From a virus, in the IMG/VR virus record IMGVR_UViG_3300042509_002293, positions 32,080 to 96,079 of that record: a stretch of 64,000 nt of DNA; one strand, written 5' to 3'. The stretch's first letter is position 1. The number at the start of each line of letters is the position of its first letter. Positions 18,204 through 20,872 of this stretch are shown piece after piece. The notes below the pieces were generated by a model. The model made no database searches. It worked only from the letters and a program-made list of their open reading frames with translations, and was not told the DNA's origin. Position numbers and translations under genes: made by a program.

Positions 18204-18501
18204 CGAACTCGTCGACCTCGTGGAGCGGTGGGCGAGCGACCGGAGGATCGTTCCGAACAGCACCCCCCAGGCCCAGCTTCTCAAGACAGTGAGCGAACTC
18301 GGGGAACTCTCCGACGCGACGCTCAAGGGAGACGAGGCCGAGGTCGTCGACGGAGTCGGGGACGTGCTCGTGACTCTGATCATCTACGCGAAGCTCCAGG
18401 GGCTCGACCTCACCCACTGCCTGAACTCCGCCTACCAGACGATCCGCAACCGGCGGGGCACGCTCACGCCCGAGGGCGTGTTCGTGAAGGAGGGGGCGTG
18501 A
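18190..18501 (+). CDS. mazG: MazG-like nucleotide pyrophosphohydrolase
   Basis: QLLKTVSELGEL...DGVGDVLVTL...AYQTIRNRRG. Confidence 0.85.
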   Translation: MITFDELVDLVERWASDRRIVPNSTPQAQLLKTVSELGELSDATLKGDEAEVVDGVGDVLVTLIIYAKLQGLDLTHCLNSAYQTIRNRRGTLTPEGVFVKEGA

Positions 18502-19085
18502 GGAAGATCATCTCGCTCTTCCAGCGAAACTACGGCGGCGACCATCTCGTTCGGGGCGAGGTCGTGCCCGGGGCCGAGTGGGTGATTGCCGGAGAGGGCA
18601 CCCCGACGCGAAAGTACGACGGGACGTGCTGCCTCATCAGGGACGGCAGGCTCTACAGGCGGTTCGACGCCAAGCGGGGGAAGTCGCCTCCCGGTGGGTT
18701 CATTCCGGCCCAGGACCCGGACCCCGTGACCGGGCACTGGCCCGGATGGTTGCTCGTCGACTTCGACAACCCGGCCGACCGCTGGCATGCCGTGGCATCG
18801 ATTGGACGCTCGCTCGTCGGCATGGACGGGACCTGGGAACTGTGCGGACCCAAGATCAACGGCAACCCGGAGGGTCTCCTCGAACACCAACTGCTCCGGC
18901 ACGGATACCCGCTAGACGACTGCGACGCGAGGGACTACCTGTCCATCCGGGACTACCTCTCAGGCAAGGACATCGAGGGCATCGTCTGGCATCACCCGGA
19001 CGGCCGCATGGTGAAGATCAAGAAGCGGGACTTCGGGCTTGACCGTAATACGGATACGAGTACACTCTCGGCCGCTGTCCCGTAG
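18498..19085 (+). CDS. ATP-dependent RNA ligase (DUF5565/RLIG1-like nucleotidyltransferase)
   Basis: Motif I RKYDGT, HWPGW, ELCGPKINGNP, motif IV EGIVW, motif V KIK. Confidence 0.78.
   Translation: MRKIISLFQRNYGGDHLVRGEVVPGAEWVIAGEGTPTRKYDGTCCLIRDGRLYRRFDAKRGKSPPGGFIPAQDPDPVTGHWPGWLLVDFDNPADRWHAVASIGRSLVGMDGTWELCGPKINGNPEGLLEHQLLRHGYPLDDCDARDYLSIRDYLSGKDIEGIVWHHPDGRMVKIKKRDFGLDRNTDTSTLSAAVP
19039..19066 (+). promoter_or_regulatory. Sigma70-like promoter for the ncRNA array/Ro60
   Basis: TTGACC-16-TACACT, ~12 nt before RNA unit 1; spacer contains the ACGGATAC motif. Confidence 0.6.
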
Positions 19086-19145
19086 TGAAGAGCGCGGTTA
19101 CTCCACAATTGCTAGGAAAGAACACCGCACTCGCTTGTTCTCGGG
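19079..19145 (+). ncRNA. Y-RNA-like unit 1 (minimal)
   Basis: CCCG-U-AG/CU-CGGG bulged basal helix, GAGCGCGGT/ACCGCACTC upper stem; shares motifs with units 2-4. Confidence 0.6.
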
Positions 19146-19161
19146 CGATAAATCAATCCAC

Positions 19162-19260
19162 AGGCGTAGTGATATGGGTCGGCTACTTCATGGATGAACG
19201 ATCGGCCTCGTGCTGATTGGCCGGTTCGAGCCCGGCATCCGCCCCAGCCCGTTCTCGCCT
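19162..19260 (+). ncRNA. Y-RNA-like unit 2 (T-arm containing)
   Basis: AGGCG-U-AG/CU-CGCCU basal helix, CGGCTACTTC, T-arm GCCGG-TTCGAGC-CCGGC. Confidence 0.7.
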
Positions 19261-19267
19261 CTCGATA

Positions 19268-19394
19268 CAGGGACGTAGTGTTGTTCGCGGCTACTTCAAG
19301 TGGACGCAAGTTCGAGTCTTGCCGCCTGGGGCTGCGCTGCCTTCGGCGACGCCGGTGCTGGCTCCCGGCACCGCGAGCAGTTGTTCTCGCCCTG
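19268..19394 (+). ncRNA. Y-RNA-like unit 3 (T-arm containing)
   Basis: CAGGG..CG-U-AG/CU-CG-CCCUG, TTGTTCGCGG/CCGCGAGCAG stem, T-arm GCAAG-TTCGAGT-CTTGC. Confidence 0.7.
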
Positions 19395-19403
19395 ACAATC
19401 CTC

Positions 19404-19541
19404 GGCTGTAGTGAAGAGGTCGGCTACTTCTTTTAGGAAGACGAGACGCCGGTTCGACTCCGGCCCCCTCCACTGCAAAGGCCCCGGAGGGGTAGCTCAA
19501 CGGTAGAGCGCGATACGTTCCGTCCTCGCCTGTTCTCGGCC
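19404..19541 (+). ncRNA. YrlA-like Y RNA, unit 4, with circularly permuted tRNA domain
   Basis: T-arm 19448-19464, then acceptor strands CCCCTCC (19465-71)/GGAGGGG (19486-92) closed by a loop, then D-arm TA-GCTC-AACGGTA-GAGC; adjacent to Ro60. Confidence 0.82.
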
Positions 19542-19573
19542 TTGGTTTTCCTCCAGTCCAGAAAGGGATCCCG

Positions 19574-20872
19574 ATGAAGCTCAACGTCGCAGACTACTCC
19601 CGCCAGACGACCCACGAGGGCGGGCCAGCCAAGCGGATCTCGCCCGAGCAGGAACTCCGTCGGAGCGTCCTCTCGTGCCTCTTGTGGGAGAAGCAGTTCT
19701 ACGAGGACGGCCAGGACATCGCCGATCGCATCGAGAGTCTCTGCGAGAAGGTCGATCCCAGCGTGATCGCGGCCCTCGCTGTCGAGGCCAGGACGGCATT
19801 CCACCTCCGGCATGTTCCGCTCCTCCTGGCGTCGTGCCTCGCCAAGCGGGGCGGAGGACGTCTCGTGGCCGACACGGTCGAGGCCGTGGTCCAGCGTGCA
19901 GACGAGTTGGCCGAGATCCTCGCCGTCTACTGGCGGAACGGCCGGTGCCCGATCTCGAACGGCCTGAAGAAGGGCCTCGCCCTCGCGTTCACGAAGTTCT
20001 CGCCGTACCAACTGGCAAAGTACAACCGAGACGGAGCGATCAAGCTCCGGGACGTCCTGTTCCTCGTCCACGCCAAGCCCAAGGACGCCGATCAGGCGGA
20101 GACCTGGAAGAAGCTCGTCGACGGCACCCTTGAGTCTCCCGATACCTGGGAGGTCTCGCTCTCCGCCGGTGCCGGCAAGCGTGAGACGTTCGAGAGGCTC
20201 ATCCGAGAGGGGAAGCTCGGCTATCTCGCCCTCCTGCGGAACCTCCGCAATATGGCCGAGGCCGGGGTCGACTCCTCGGCGGTCAAGAATGCGATCCTCT
20301 GCCGTGCCGGCGCCGGCCGGGTGCTGCCGTTCCGCTACGTTGCGGCGGCGAGGGCCTGCCCGCAGTACGAGACGACGCTCGACATCGCCCTGCTTGCGGC
20401 CATCTCGGAACTGCCGGCCCTGCCGGGCAAGACGCTCGTGCTCGTCGACATCTCCGGGAGCATGGACTCCGCATTGTCTGGAAAGAGTGACCTGAGGCGG
20501 ATCGACGCGGCGGCCGCCCTGGCGAGCATCATTCCCGGGGACGTGCGGGTCTTCTCGTTCACCGACGCAGTCAAGGAGGTCCCGCCCAGGCGGGGCATGG
20601 CGGGGGTCGACGCGATCCTCTCGTCTCAGCCCCACGGCGGGACGTACCTTGGCCATGCCGTGAAGGCGATGAATGCGATCGAGCACGACCGGCTCGTGGT
20701 CATCACCGACGAGCAGTCGGCGGACTCCGTCCCGGACCCGCTCGCGAAGCATGCCTACATGATCAACGTGGCCTCGCACCGCAACGGTGTCGGCTACGGA
20801 CGCTGGACCCACCTCGACGGATTCTCCGAGAACGTCATCCGCTTCATCGCAGAGAGCGAGGCGGGCCGATGA
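19574..20872 (+). CDS. rsr: Ro60/TROVE-domain RNA-binding protein
   Basis: TROVE motifs (FYE, RADEL, YQLAKY, LRDVLFLVHAKP, TWEV.LS, ALLRNLRN, RVLPFRY) and vWA motifs (VDISGSM, GGT, ITDEQ). Confidence 0.93.
   Translation: MKLNVADYSRQTTHEGGPAKRISPEQELRRSVLSCLLWEKQFYEDGQDIADRIESLCEKVDPSVIAALAVEARTAFHLRHVPLLLASCLAKRGGGRLVADTVEAVVQRADELAEILAVYWRNGRCPISNGLKKGLALAFTKFSPYQLAKYNRDGAIKLRDVLFLVHAKPKDADQAETWKKLVDGTLESPDTWEVSLSAGAGKRETFERLIREGKLGYLALLRNLRNMAEAGVDSSAVKNAILCRAGAGRVLPFRYVAAARACPQYETTLDIALLAAISELPALPGKTLVLVDISGSMDSALSGKSDLRRIDAAAALASIIPGDVRVFSFTDAVKEVPPRRGMAGVDAILSSQPHGGTYLGHAVKAMNAIEHDRLVVITDEQSADSVPDPLAKHAYMINVASHRNGVGYGRWTHLDGFSENVIRFIAESEAGR

What the first reader, a model, noticed from the sequence alone, without database searches (positions are those of the whole stretch)
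19404..19541. Unit 4 is a circularly permuted tRNA with a Lys(UUU)-like loop
Seen: T-arm GCCGG-TTCGACT-CCGGC comes first, then a 7-bp acceptor CCCCTCC(A)/GGAGGGG joined by a loop, then a canonical U8-A9 D-arm GCTC-AACGGTA-GAGC. This is the YrlA topology. Just upstream, CTTC-TTTTAG-GAAG contains CUUUUAG, resembling the tRNA-Lys(UUU) anticodon loop, a known target of anticodon nucleases such as PrrC. Speculation: a decoy substrate, or a precursor that RNase P/Z plus the adjacent ligase could remodel. Units 2 and 3 keep a T-arm but no recognisable D-arm, and unit 1 has neither, giving a graded series of tRNA mimicry.
Basis: partly seen in the sequence, partly recalled or inferred. Interest (0 to 1): 0.75.

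Follow-up and report, generated by a model that had tools for sequence, protein, structure and literature searches.

The report
Phage Y RNA that mimics tRNA
Unit 4 is a back-to-front tRNA look-alike of the known YrlA type, the partner RNA of the phage's own Ro60 protein encoded just downstream. Its supposed lysine anticodon loop does not hold up, although in many related phages the same hairpin does look like a real anticodon arm.

Summary
At 19448-19509 a T-arm, a closed 7-bp acceptor stem and a U8-A9 D-arm lie in YrlA order.

- **Context.** Unit 4 (19401-19542) is the last of four Y-RNA-like units. They lie between an RLIG1-type RNA ligase gene (18498-19085) and a TROVE+vWA Ro60 gene (19574-20872) in a 96-kb phage genome that has no tRNA genes.
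- **Family membership.** Rfam YrlA matches only the tRNA-like core (32 bits, cut-off 69). A covariance model built from 90 units beside related Ro60 genes, with the window left out, matches unit 4 end to end (87.5 bits, E about 1e-23).
- **Arrays.** About 150 of the 170 Ro60 loci examined first carry arrays like this one, so the "graded series" is normal for the family.
- **Lys(UUU) reading: not supported.** The hairpin folds with a 4-6-nt loop in every register. None places UUU at positions 34-36 of a 7-nt loop, and the motif is absent from the nearest homologues.
- **Family-level surprise.** In 65 of 171 distinct T-arm units this hairpin is a perfect 5-bp stem with a 7-nt loop (Y32, U33, variable triplet, R37, A38) followed by a 5-nt variable loop. 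That is an anticodon arm, not the "variable arm" described in print. Unit 4 carries a decayed copy.

Verdict: a new member of a known kind. This scan has noted phage Ro60 RNA arrays before on other DNA.

The parts
18498..19085 (+). RLIG1-type ATP-dependent RNA ligase gene, 195 aa, with a K-x-D-G motif. The longer ORF from 18228 is over-extended.
   Evidence: Pfam PF17720. PDB 9c6l 'RNA ligase1', E 1.6e-16, with the lysine motif aligned. phrog_14301 matched full length, E 2.8e-71. The N-terminal 90 aa of the 18228 ORF are low-complexity.
19039..19066 (+). Sigma-70-like promoter candidate just upstream of unit 1. No terminator-like site lies between it and the Ro60 gene.
   Evidence: 1 site found against 0.2 expected, and 0 terminator-like sites in 18900-19700.
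19075..19147 (+). Unit 1: Ro60-handle scaffold with a short insert and no tRNA-like arms.
   Evidence: R1 26.8 bits, E 2.9e-6. Both ends of the model match and 83 middle positions are replaced by 18 nt.
19160..19262 (+). Unit 2: scaffold plus a T-arm (19220-19236), no D-arm. Outer limits read by eye from the shared 5' and 3' motifs.
   Evidence: T-arm hit to R1 positions 50-66, 11.7 bits. Motifs seen.
19268..19393 (+). Unit 3: scaffold plus a T-arm and a long hairpin, no D-arm.
   Evidence: R1 34.7 bits, E 1.5e-8.
19401..19542 (+). Unit 4: complete YrlA-class Y RNA (the finding).
   Evidence: R1 87.5 bits, E 7.6e-24, model positions 1-138 of 138. Rfam YrlA core hit at 19445-19509.
19408..19416 (+). 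5' handle motif, the predicted Ro60 contact. It is a variant of the published GNCGAAN0-1G motif. The family consensus is G-G-Y-G-N-A-G, and unit 4 has A at its first position.
   Evidence: Column counts in A2. Aligned by R1. Motif defined in PMC4201824.
19417..19423 (+). Inner scaffold helix, 5' strand. It pairs with 19520-19526: 6 pairs and one U-U mismatch.
   Evidence: The family helix covaries at all 6 modelled pairs. Unit 4 pairing shown.
19424..19427 (+). Conserved YUAY element that precedes the hairpin.
   Evidence: U-A-C is invariant in 90 of 90 family units. YUAY is described in PMC4201824.
19427..19447 (+). Hairpin plus linker at the place of the family's anticodon-arm-like element. 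Here it is decayed: 2 nt short, with a 4-6-nt loop depending on register.
   Evidence: MFE gives 5 bp and a 4-nt loop. R1 alignment gives 4 bp and a 5-nt loop. ARAGORN register has a mismatched stem. Family signature.
19448..19464 (+). T-arm with canonical G53-C61, U54, U55, C56, A58.
   Evidence: These positions are invariant in the family.
19465..19492 (+). Closed acceptor stem: 7 bp, A at the discriminator position (19472), 13-nt loop, no encoded CCA. RNase P cleavage is predicted between 19485 and 19486.
   Evidence: The cleavage site is inferred by analogy with M. smegmatis YrlA (PMC4201824).
19493..19509 (+). U8-A9 and the D-arm (A14, A15, G18-G19).
   Evidence: A15 faces C at position 48 (19447), a rare combination seen in 2 of 90 family units.
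19527..19541 (+). Conserved 3' handle motif (19527-19537) and the outer-helix 3' strand (19538-19541, pairing with 19404-19407).
   Evidence: Family column counts. R1 alignment. Fold.
19574..20872 (+). Ro60 orthologue (TROVE plus vWA), 432 aa: the predicted protein partner.
   Evidence: Pfam TROVE and VWA_2. PDB 9KOP/9L5Y, Thermus phage Ro60, E 2.5e-30 over residues 12-431. phrog_850.

Best explanation
Unit 4 is a YrlA-class Y RNA, the non-coding partner of the phage-encoded Ro60 protein whose gene starts 32 nt downstream.

**Shown by sequence**
- The RNA has two modules.
- The first is a handle made by pairing its 5' and 3' ends: an outer helix, an asymmetric internal loop that carries the conserved 5' motif and a conserved 3' motif, and an inner helix. 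This handle is shared by all four units of the array and by hundreds of units beside related Ro60 genes.
- The second is a tRNA-like body in permuted order: hairpin, linker, T-arm, closed 7-bp acceptor, U8-A9, D-arm.

**Inferred**
- Ro60 binds the handle, as shown for Y RNAs of Xenopus, Deinococcus, Salmonella, M. smegmatis and a Thermus phage.
- The L-shaped tRNA-like body recruits a host tRNA-recognising factor to the Ro60 ring: PNPase, RNase P, the CCA-adding enzyme, modification enzymes, or a ligase.
- The particle therefore steers RNA decay or repair during infection.
- The array and the Ro60 gene are probably transcribed together from the promoter-like site at 19039-19066, and the RNAs are cut out of that transcript.
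- Because its acceptor has 7 bp, as in M. smegmatis YrlA, unit 4 may be opened by RNase P between 19485 and 19486.

For: - Rfam YrlA aligns T-arm, acceptor and D-arm.
- The family model R1, built without the window, matches full length at 87.5 bits.
- The neighbour is a Ro60 orthologue.
- 7 of 9 and then 15 of 15 sampled relatives have a YrlA-like hit just upstream of Ro60 on the same strand.
- 429 handle-bearing units were found in about 151 of 170 loci.
- Across 90 units the structure is supported by covariation: 93% of cells paired, 506 double changes against 169 in shuffles, 0 of 500 shuffles as high, and all slid controls far lower.
- Tertiary-contact positions are invariant in the family and present in unit 4.
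- Published biochemistry for the class: PMC4201824, 10.1101/312249, PMC12135203.
Against: - There are no expression, binding or processing data for this phage.
- The score against the curated Rfam family is below its cut-off (32 against 69).
- The 5' motif deviates at one conserved position (A for G, seen in 3 of 90 relatives).
- The Levitt pair is A15 opposite C48, whereas 87 of 90 relatives keep G:C or A:U.
- The fold is no more stable than shuffled sequence (z -0.29).
- No close relative of this phage exists in the collections (best Ro60 identity 68%), so conservation of unit 4 itself cannot be checked.
Confidence: 0.85

Rival explanations
1. Anticodon-nuclease decoy. The hairpin mimics the tRNA-Lys(UUU) anticodon loop and soaks up, or reports, a host anticodon nuclease such as PrrC. 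The adjacent ligase reseals the cut.
For: - An RNA ligase gene is adjacent.
- Across the family the homologous hairpin does have anticodon-arm geometry, with a conserved U33 and R37 and a free triplet.
- One relative (L002) has an exact Lys-type 7-nt loop, and the Rfam tRNA model aligns it as an anticodon arm.
Against: - In unit 4 no register gives a 7-nt loop with UUU at 34-36. The loop has 4-6 nt and the homology-based alignment is 2 nt short.
- The motif is not kept in the closest hairpins.
- 27 different triplets occur in the family, so no single tRNA is mimicked.
- No ligase homologue was found in the DNA held around the 170 loci searched (1.6-3 kb of flank on each side of Ro60), so the ligase link is not a family trait.
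Confidence: 0.05
2. Permuted pre-tRNA. The unit is opened at the acceptor loop by RNase P and 3' trimming. The handle is then excised and the ends joined by the adjacent ligase, giving a working or split tRNA.
For: - ARAGORN calls the in-silico re-permuted unit 4 a 73-nt tRNA.
- The acceptor has 7 bp.
- 18 of 143 family units encode N73-CCA in the acceptor loop, against about 2 expected.
- The phage has no tRNA genes.
- The possibility is raised in 10.1101/312249.
Against: - The ARAGORN call is weak evidence. With the hairpin segment shuffled it still-84 of 144 units, against 105 real ones.
- Unit 4 has no canonical anticodon loop and no encoded CCA.
- Family bodies are nearly identical whatever the triplet. 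For example, the Ser-type triplet GCU comes with a 5-nt variable loop instead of the long arm that Ser tRNAs carry (established tRNA knowledge). The triplets therefore do not look like decoding identities.
- No bacterial or phage enzyme is known that would excise the handle.
Confidence: 0.05
3. Non-functional relic: a decaying tandem-tRNA remnant, or a spare copy carried along with the functional shorter units.
For: Unit 4 shows signs of decay relative to the family: a shortened hairpin, a mismatched 15:48 pair, a U-U mismatch in the inner helix, and a variant 5' motif.
Against: - The end-to-end 87.5-bit match includes an intact acceptor, T-arm, D-arm and both handle strands.
- 114 of 151 arrays keep at least one full unit: 79 have exactly one and 35 have two or three. 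In 68 arrays a full unit is the one next to Ro60, as here. This rough parser wrongly scored window unit 3 as full.
- All four window units share the same variant motif, which suggests co-adaptation with this Ro60 rather than decay.
Confidence: 0.04
4. Two-piece (permuted) tmRNA of the alphaproteobacterial kind, which has the same T-arm-first gene order.
For: Weak Rfam hits to tmRNA_permuted (21.4 bits, cut-off 47) and tmRNA (18.5 bits) over the T-arm and acceptor.
Against: - Both hits are far below their cut-offs and cover only the shared tRNA-like part.
- ARAGORN in tmRNA mode finds nothing in the whole genome.
- A canonical D-arm is present.
- The YrlA and R1 models explain the full length.
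Confidence: 0.01

Closest known systems
YrlA (Y RNA-like A; Rfam RF02553; Chen et al. 2014, PMC4201824; crystal structure 6CU1, preprint 10.1101/312249)
   Same: - Encoded next to and on the same strand as a Ro60 orthologue.
- The 5' and 3' ends pair into a handle with a G-N-Y-G-N-A-G-type motif.
- YUAY element, then T-arm, closed acceptor stem, U8-A9 and D-arm in that order.
- tRNA tertiary-contact nucleotides are kept.
- Companion shorter Y RNAs (YrlB-like) lie in the same locus.
   Different: - Scores 32 bits against a cut-off of 69. All 22 hits in sampled relatives score 31-54 bits.
- The Rfam consensus has a short variable loop where this clade has a hairpin.
- The handle has a longer conserved 3' motif.
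- The 5' motif has U or C and variable A, U or C where the published motif has C and A.
M. smegmatis YrlA
   Same: - 7-bp acceptor stem closed by a loop, the feature that makes the M. smegmatis RNA a substrate for RNase P and CCA addition.
- A hairpin follows the YUAY-type element.
- Not linked to RtcB or RtcR.
   Different: Processing of unit 4 is untested. The host and the Ro60 clade are different.
Phage Ro60 particles: 22 phages in Chen 2014 (mycobacteriophages; PMC12135203 lists Caulobacter phage CcrColossus among them) and Thermus phage phiLo Ro60 with Yrl1/Yrl2 (PMC12135203)
   Same: - A phage-encoded Ro60 with its own Y-RNA-like genes immediately upstream.
- CcrColossus belongs to the same Ro60 clade (57% identity; locus L072).
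- phiLo Ro60 is the closest solved structure.
   Different: - phiLo Yrl RNAs were defined by a CGAA motif and are not described as tRNA mimics.
- Here there are four units, and an RLIG1-type ligase gene lies directly upstream.
Circularly permuted tRNA genes (Cyanidioschyzon merolae and others) and alphaproteobacterial two-piece tmRNA
   Same: The 3' half of the tRNA-like fold precedes the 5' half, and the acceptor ends are joined by a loop that is opened by processing.
   Different: - Those RNAs mature into working tRNA or tmRNA.
- Here the break lies between the D-arm and the anticodon-arm position and is occupied by a conserved protein-binding handle.
- There is no tag frame and, in unit 4, no anticodon loop.

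Membership tests
YrlA-class Y RNA | Encoded within a few kb of a Ro60 (TROVE+vWA) gene, on the same strand | tested here: met
   Unit 4 ends 32 nt before the Ro60 start codon, on the same strand.
YrlA-class Y RNA | T-arm, then closed acceptor-like stem, then U-A and D-arm, in that order | tested here: met
   Rfam YrlA alignment at 19445-19509. R1 alignment.
YrlA-class Y RNA | tRNA tertiary-contact nucleotides (U8, A14, G18-G19, U54-U55-C56, A58, G53-C61, Levitt 15:48 pair) | tested here: inconclusive
   All are present except the Levitt pair, which is A15 opposite C48. The family has G:C in 78, A:U in 9 and A:C in 2 of 90 units.
YrlA-class Y RNA | 5' GNCGAAN0-1G motif in a helix formed by the 5' and 3' ends | tested here: inconclusive
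   A variant motif sits at 19408-19416 in the homologous column block, with A for the first G and U for C. The U is common in the clade and the A is rare, 3 of 90. The terminal helix forms.
YrlA-class Y RNA | Conserved YUAY before the variable-region hairpin | tested here: met
   19424-19427. U-A-C is invariant in the clade.
YrlA-class Y RNA | Reaches the Rfam RF02553 gathering score | tested here: not met
   32 bits against 69. The same holds for every relative sampled, so this reflects the model's narrow seed rather than this copy.
YrlA-class Y RNA | Bound by Ro60 in vivo and carrying tRNA-type modifications | not testable with these tools
   Needs immunoprecipitation and modification mapping.
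Clade-specific family (model R1, Ro60 of about 430 aa in alphaproteobacterial phages and prophages) | Full-length match to a covariance model built without the window | tested here: met
   87.5 bits, E 7.6e-24, positions 1-138 of 138.
tRNA-Lys(UUU) anticodon stem-loop mimic | 7-nt loop closed by a 5-bp stem, with U33, UUU at 34-36 and a purine at 37 | tested here: not met
   The registers give 5 bp with a 4-nt loop (MFE), 4 bp with a 6-nt loop (reader), 4 bp with a 5-nt loop (R1), or a mismatched stem with other triplets (ARAGORN and my own parse).
tRNA-Lys(UUU) anticodon stem-loop mimic | Loop motif conserved in homologues | tested here: not met
   The closest hairpins (L068, 20 of 23 identical; L018) lack it. 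27 different triplets occur in the family.
Canonical tRNA gene | Detected by a tRNA finder in native order | tested here: not met
   ARAGORN finds none in the window or the whole genome.
Two-piece tmRNA | Tag reading frame, tmRNA model score | tested here: not met
   ARAGORN in tmRNA mode finds none. Rfam hits of 18-21 bits against a cut-off of 47.

The most novel reading that the evidence does not exclude
In this Ro60 clade the Y RNAs may be whole tRNAs, not just tRNA elbows.
- The hairpin called a variable arm in print would be a true anticodon arm: 5 bp, a 7-nt loop with Y32-U33 and R37-A38 under selection, a free triplet, then a class-I 5-nt variable loop.
- The tRNA would be permuted between positions 26 and 27, with the Ro60 handle inserted there.
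- A subset even encodes N73-CCA.

If so, the Ro60 particle displays a complete tRNA body. It could then act as bait, sensor or repair template for enzymes that act on anticodon loops (anticodon nucleases, tRNA-guanine transglycosylase, ligases). Unit 4 would be a decayed example.
Probability: 0.12. Interest if true: 0.75.

Novelty: new member of a known kind. Interest (0 to 1): 0.35.

Why it matters
As it stands, this adds one more phage to the known set that carries its own Ro60 and tRNA-mimicking Y RNAs, here beside an RLIG1-type RNA ligase rather than RtcB. It also shows that Rfam's YrlA model misses a whole clade, with every sampled member scoring below the cut-off.

The by-product matters more. 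In a large share of the clade, the element described as a variable arm has the exact size and loop signature of an anticodon arm.

This gives sequence-level support to the idea that YrlA arose from tRNA, specifically the dimeric-tRNA model. It suggests that the first tRNA's anticodon arm survived intact rather than being absorbed into the Ro60-binding stem. It also makes a testable prediction: enzymes that read anticodon loops should act on these Y RNAs.

Tried and rejected
- **ARAGORN and Rfam at curated thresholds on the window:** nothing found.
- **ARAGORN on re-permuted units as a test of tRNA-likeness:** unit 4 is called a tRNA. I reject this as evidence for the hairpin, because shuffling that segment still gives 70-84 calls of 144, against 105 for the real sequences.
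- **Thermodynamic stability of unit 4:** z -0.29, not informative.
- **DNA search of the array against 50,697 phage records:** no match.
- **Search for a close relative of this phage, to test conservation of the loop directly:** IMG/VR, GTDB genomes and metagenome contigs all top out at 65-68% Ro60 identity. blastn of unit 4 finds at best 45 nt at 87%.
- **Ligase homologues beside the Ro60 loci held at that point (L001-L171):** none found by tblastn in the DNA held, 1.6-3 kb of flank on each side.
- **RNAalifold on the 90-unit alignment:** it did not itself predict the anticodon-like hairpin. I imposed that helix and counted pairs, so its support rests on two covarying pairs plus the fixed-register test.
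- **tmRNA reading:** rejected.
- **Reviews not held:** Sim and Wolin 2018 and the 2020 Annual Review. I cannot exclude that they already describe the hairpin as an anticodon arm.

Full report
**1. What is there**

- T-arm 19448-19464
- a 7-bp acceptor made of 19465-19471 and 19486-19492, closed by A19472 plus a 13-nt loop
- U19493-A19494
- D-arm 19495-19509
- upstream, a small hairpin at 19427-19440

ARAGORN and Rfam at curated thresholds report nothing in the window. A permissive Rfam search aligns YrlA model positions 28-81 to 19445-19509, which are exactly the T-arm, closed acceptor and D-arm (32 bits, cut-off 69, E 5.5e-5). Weak tmRNA hits cover the same shared tRNA-like part.

**2. Context**

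- The window is the last 64 kb of a 96-kb, 98%-complete IMG/VR virus record. That genome has no tRNA or tmRNA gene.
- The ORF starting 32 nt after unit 4 (19574-20872) is a Ro60 orthologue. It has TROVE and vWA domains, matches phrog_850, and matches the Thermus phage phiLo Ro60 structure over its full length (E 2.5e-30).
- The gene ending at 19085 is a 195-aa RLIG1-type RNA ligase with the lysine motif aligned to PDB 9c6l. Its real start is 18498, not 18228.
- A promoter-like site lies at 19039-19066, and no terminator-like site lies before the Ro60 gene.

**3. The family**

Ro60 relatives (up to 68% identity) were fetched from three sources: IMG/VR, GTDB genomes, where most are prophages of Caulobacterales and Hyphomicrobiales, and metagenome contigs. 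In the first 170 loci I found 429 units upstream of Ro60 in about 151 loci. All share one handle: a 5' G-G-Y-G-N-A-G-type motif, a covarying inner helix, an invariant U-A-C-U-U-C, a variable body, the return strand, and a conserved pyrimidine-rich 3' motif.

Arrays of two to four units are typical. By a rough parser, 79 of 151 arrays have exactly one full tRNA-like unit next to reduced ones. That parser wrongly scored window unit 3 as full and missed unit 1.

On an alignment of 90 full units that excludes the window (A2):
- The proposed structure has 93% of cells paired.
- It shows 506 double-sided changes against 169 in shuffles, with 0 of 500 shuffles as high.
- It collapses when partners are slid by one to three columns.

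The covariance model built from this alignment (R1) scores the window as follows:

| Unit | Coordinates | R1 result |
|---|---|---|
| 4 | 19401-19542 | 87.5 bits, E 7.6e-24, full length |
| 3 | 19268-19393 | 34.7 bits |
| 1 | 19075-19147 | 26.8 bits |
| 2 | 19220-19236 | T-arm only, 11.7 bits |

All 22 Rfam YrlA hits in sampled relatives lie at 31-54 bits, below the cut-off of 69. Failing that threshold is therefore a property of the clade, not of this copy.

**4. The "Lys-like" loop**

The hairpin can slip between registers because of its U-run and purine-run:
- The MFE fold gives 5 bp and a 4-nt loop.
- The homology-based R1 alignment gives 4 bp and a 5-nt loop, 2 nt shorter than the family consensus.
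- ARAGORN's register, and the fixed-register parse, need a mismatched stem and read other triplets.

None of these gives a 7-nt loop with UUU at 34-36. The closest homologous hairpin (L068, 20 of 23 positions identical) and the closest overall unit (L018) lack the motif. No close relative of the phage exists in which to test it further.

**5. What the hairpin is in the family**

Of 171 distinct units with a T-arm, 65 have, directly abutting the T-stem, a perfect 5-bp stem, a 7-nt loop and a 4-5-nt linker. Shuffled controls give 3-8.

In those 65 units:
- position 32 is a pyrimidine in 60
- position 33 is U in 62
- position 37 is a purine in 60
- position 38 is A in 51
- positions 34-36 show 27 different triplets
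- the linker is A-G-G-U-C in 40

The two stem pairs that are free to vary do covary (G:C to U:A, C:G to A:U). The result replicates in 27 further units from metagenome contigs: 10 are perfect against 0-1 in shuffles, with the same loop signature.

The Rfam tRNA model, run on native sequence, aligns this hairpin as the anticodon arm. It aligns the 5' handle motif as acceptor strand plus U8-A9-G10. Scores are 28.5 bits in L002 and 32.7-32.8 bits in L015 and L056, against a cut-off of 29.

Published work calls this element a variable arm or long variable loop of class II type, and states that YrlA lacks an anticodon loop (PMC4201824; 10.1101/312249). Class II variable arms have short loops and are followed by only one or two nucleotides (established tRNA knowledge). 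The dimensions seen here fit an anticodon arm followed by a class-I variable loop better.

This fits the dimeric-tRNA origin model summarised in 10.1101/312249, with one difference: the first tRNA's anticodon arm appears to be retained rather than absorbed into the Ro60 stem. Which helix stacks on the D-stem in three dimensions cannot be decided from sequence.

**6.

Joining acceptor 5' strand, D-arm and position 26 to hairpin, linker, T-arm and acceptor 3' strand makes ARAGORN call unit 4 a 73-nt tRNA. It does the same for 105 of 144 family units, against 23 in native order. With the hairpin segment shuffled it still. The test therefore vouches only for the acceptor, D-arm and T-arm.

**7. 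How it most likely works**

*Shown:* the two-module anatomy, the synteny with Ro60, and the covariation.

*Inferred from the characterised members of the class:*
- Ro60 binds the handle.
- The L-shaped body recruits a tRNA-recognising host factor.
- The particle redirects RNA decay or repair during infection. A Ro60-Yrl-PNPase complex is reported for a Thermus phage (PMC12135203). Ro60 with a tRNA-like partner has been proposed as an RNA-repair platform in phages (PMC7824862).
- The 7-bp acceptor makes RNase P opening plausible, as in M. smegmatis (PMC4201824).

The adjacent RLIG1-type ligase fits the repair theme. It is not a family trait, however: no homologue was found in the 1.6-3 kb of flank held around the 170 loci searched.

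Unit 4 shows mild decay relative to the consensus: a shortened hairpin, A15 opposite C48, one U-U mismatch in the inner helix, and A at a conserved G of the motif. All four window units share that last variant, which suggests co-adaptation with this particular Ro60.

**8. Verdict**

Unit 4 is a real feature, correctly recognised as YrlA-like, and a new member of a known kind. The Lys-decoy idea is not supported for unit 4. The anticodon-arm signature of the family is the part worth following up. Earlier notes of this scan describe phage Ro60 genes with handle-tagged RNA arrays on other DNA, so the general theme has been seen before in the scan.

Noticed in passing
L002:2846-2870, L014:1450-1474, L121:1014-1038 and about 60 further units in L001-L171: The hairpin between the invariant U-A-C and the T-arm is a canonical anticodon arm (5 bp, a 7-nt loop with Y32-U33 and R37-A38, then a 5-nt linker) in 65 of 171 distinct units. 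27 different triplets occur. The literature calls it a variable arm.
   Followed up: yes
L115:987-1118, L121:990-1121, L130:984-1115 (Hoeflea and Rhizobiaceae prophages): In the hairpin and its linker these three units differ only at loop position 36, giving GUG, GUU and GUA; the rest of the units is very similar. Triplets of the form G34-U35-N36 make up 16 of the 65 canonical loops. U33-G34-U35 is the recognition element of tRNA-guanine transglycosylase and the context cut by colicin E5 (from memory, not tested).
   Followed up: partly
18 units, e.g. L099:1192, L114:1052, L121:1014, L131:608, L163:1389 (unit start positions): The acceptor loop encodes N73-CCA directly after the 7-bp stem, followed by only 1-3 nt before the 5' strand. 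That is 18 of 143 units against about 2 expected. It hints at processing to a CCA end, as in two-piece tmRNA.
   Followed up: partly
L056:1316-1383, L015:1436-1503: The 5' half of a Y RNA unit scores above the Rfam tRNA gathering score in native order (32.8 and 32.7 bits against 29). Such units may be mis-annotated as tRNA genes.
   Followed up: partly
window 18228-18497: The longest ORF for the ligase is over-extended by about 90 Arg- and Pro-rich residues. The family match starts at 18498.
   Followed up: yes
window 19075-19147: Unit 1 has C-U-C-C where units 2-4 and the family have C-U-U-C after the U-A. It carries only an 18-nt insert, making it the smallest handle-only unit.
   Followed up: partly
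L155 and L156 (Allohahella sp. A8 chromosome, about 52 kb apart): Two copies of the Ro60 locus lie in one bacterial chromosome, presumably in two related prophages.
   Followed up: no
window 18498-19085 versus phage records: The closest relatives of the ligase (about 55% identity) are in mycobacteriophages and Ralstonia jumbo phages, whereas the closest Ro60 relatives are in phages of Xanthomonas and Alphaproteobacteria. The two genes of the module therefore have different nearest neighbours.
   Followed up: no
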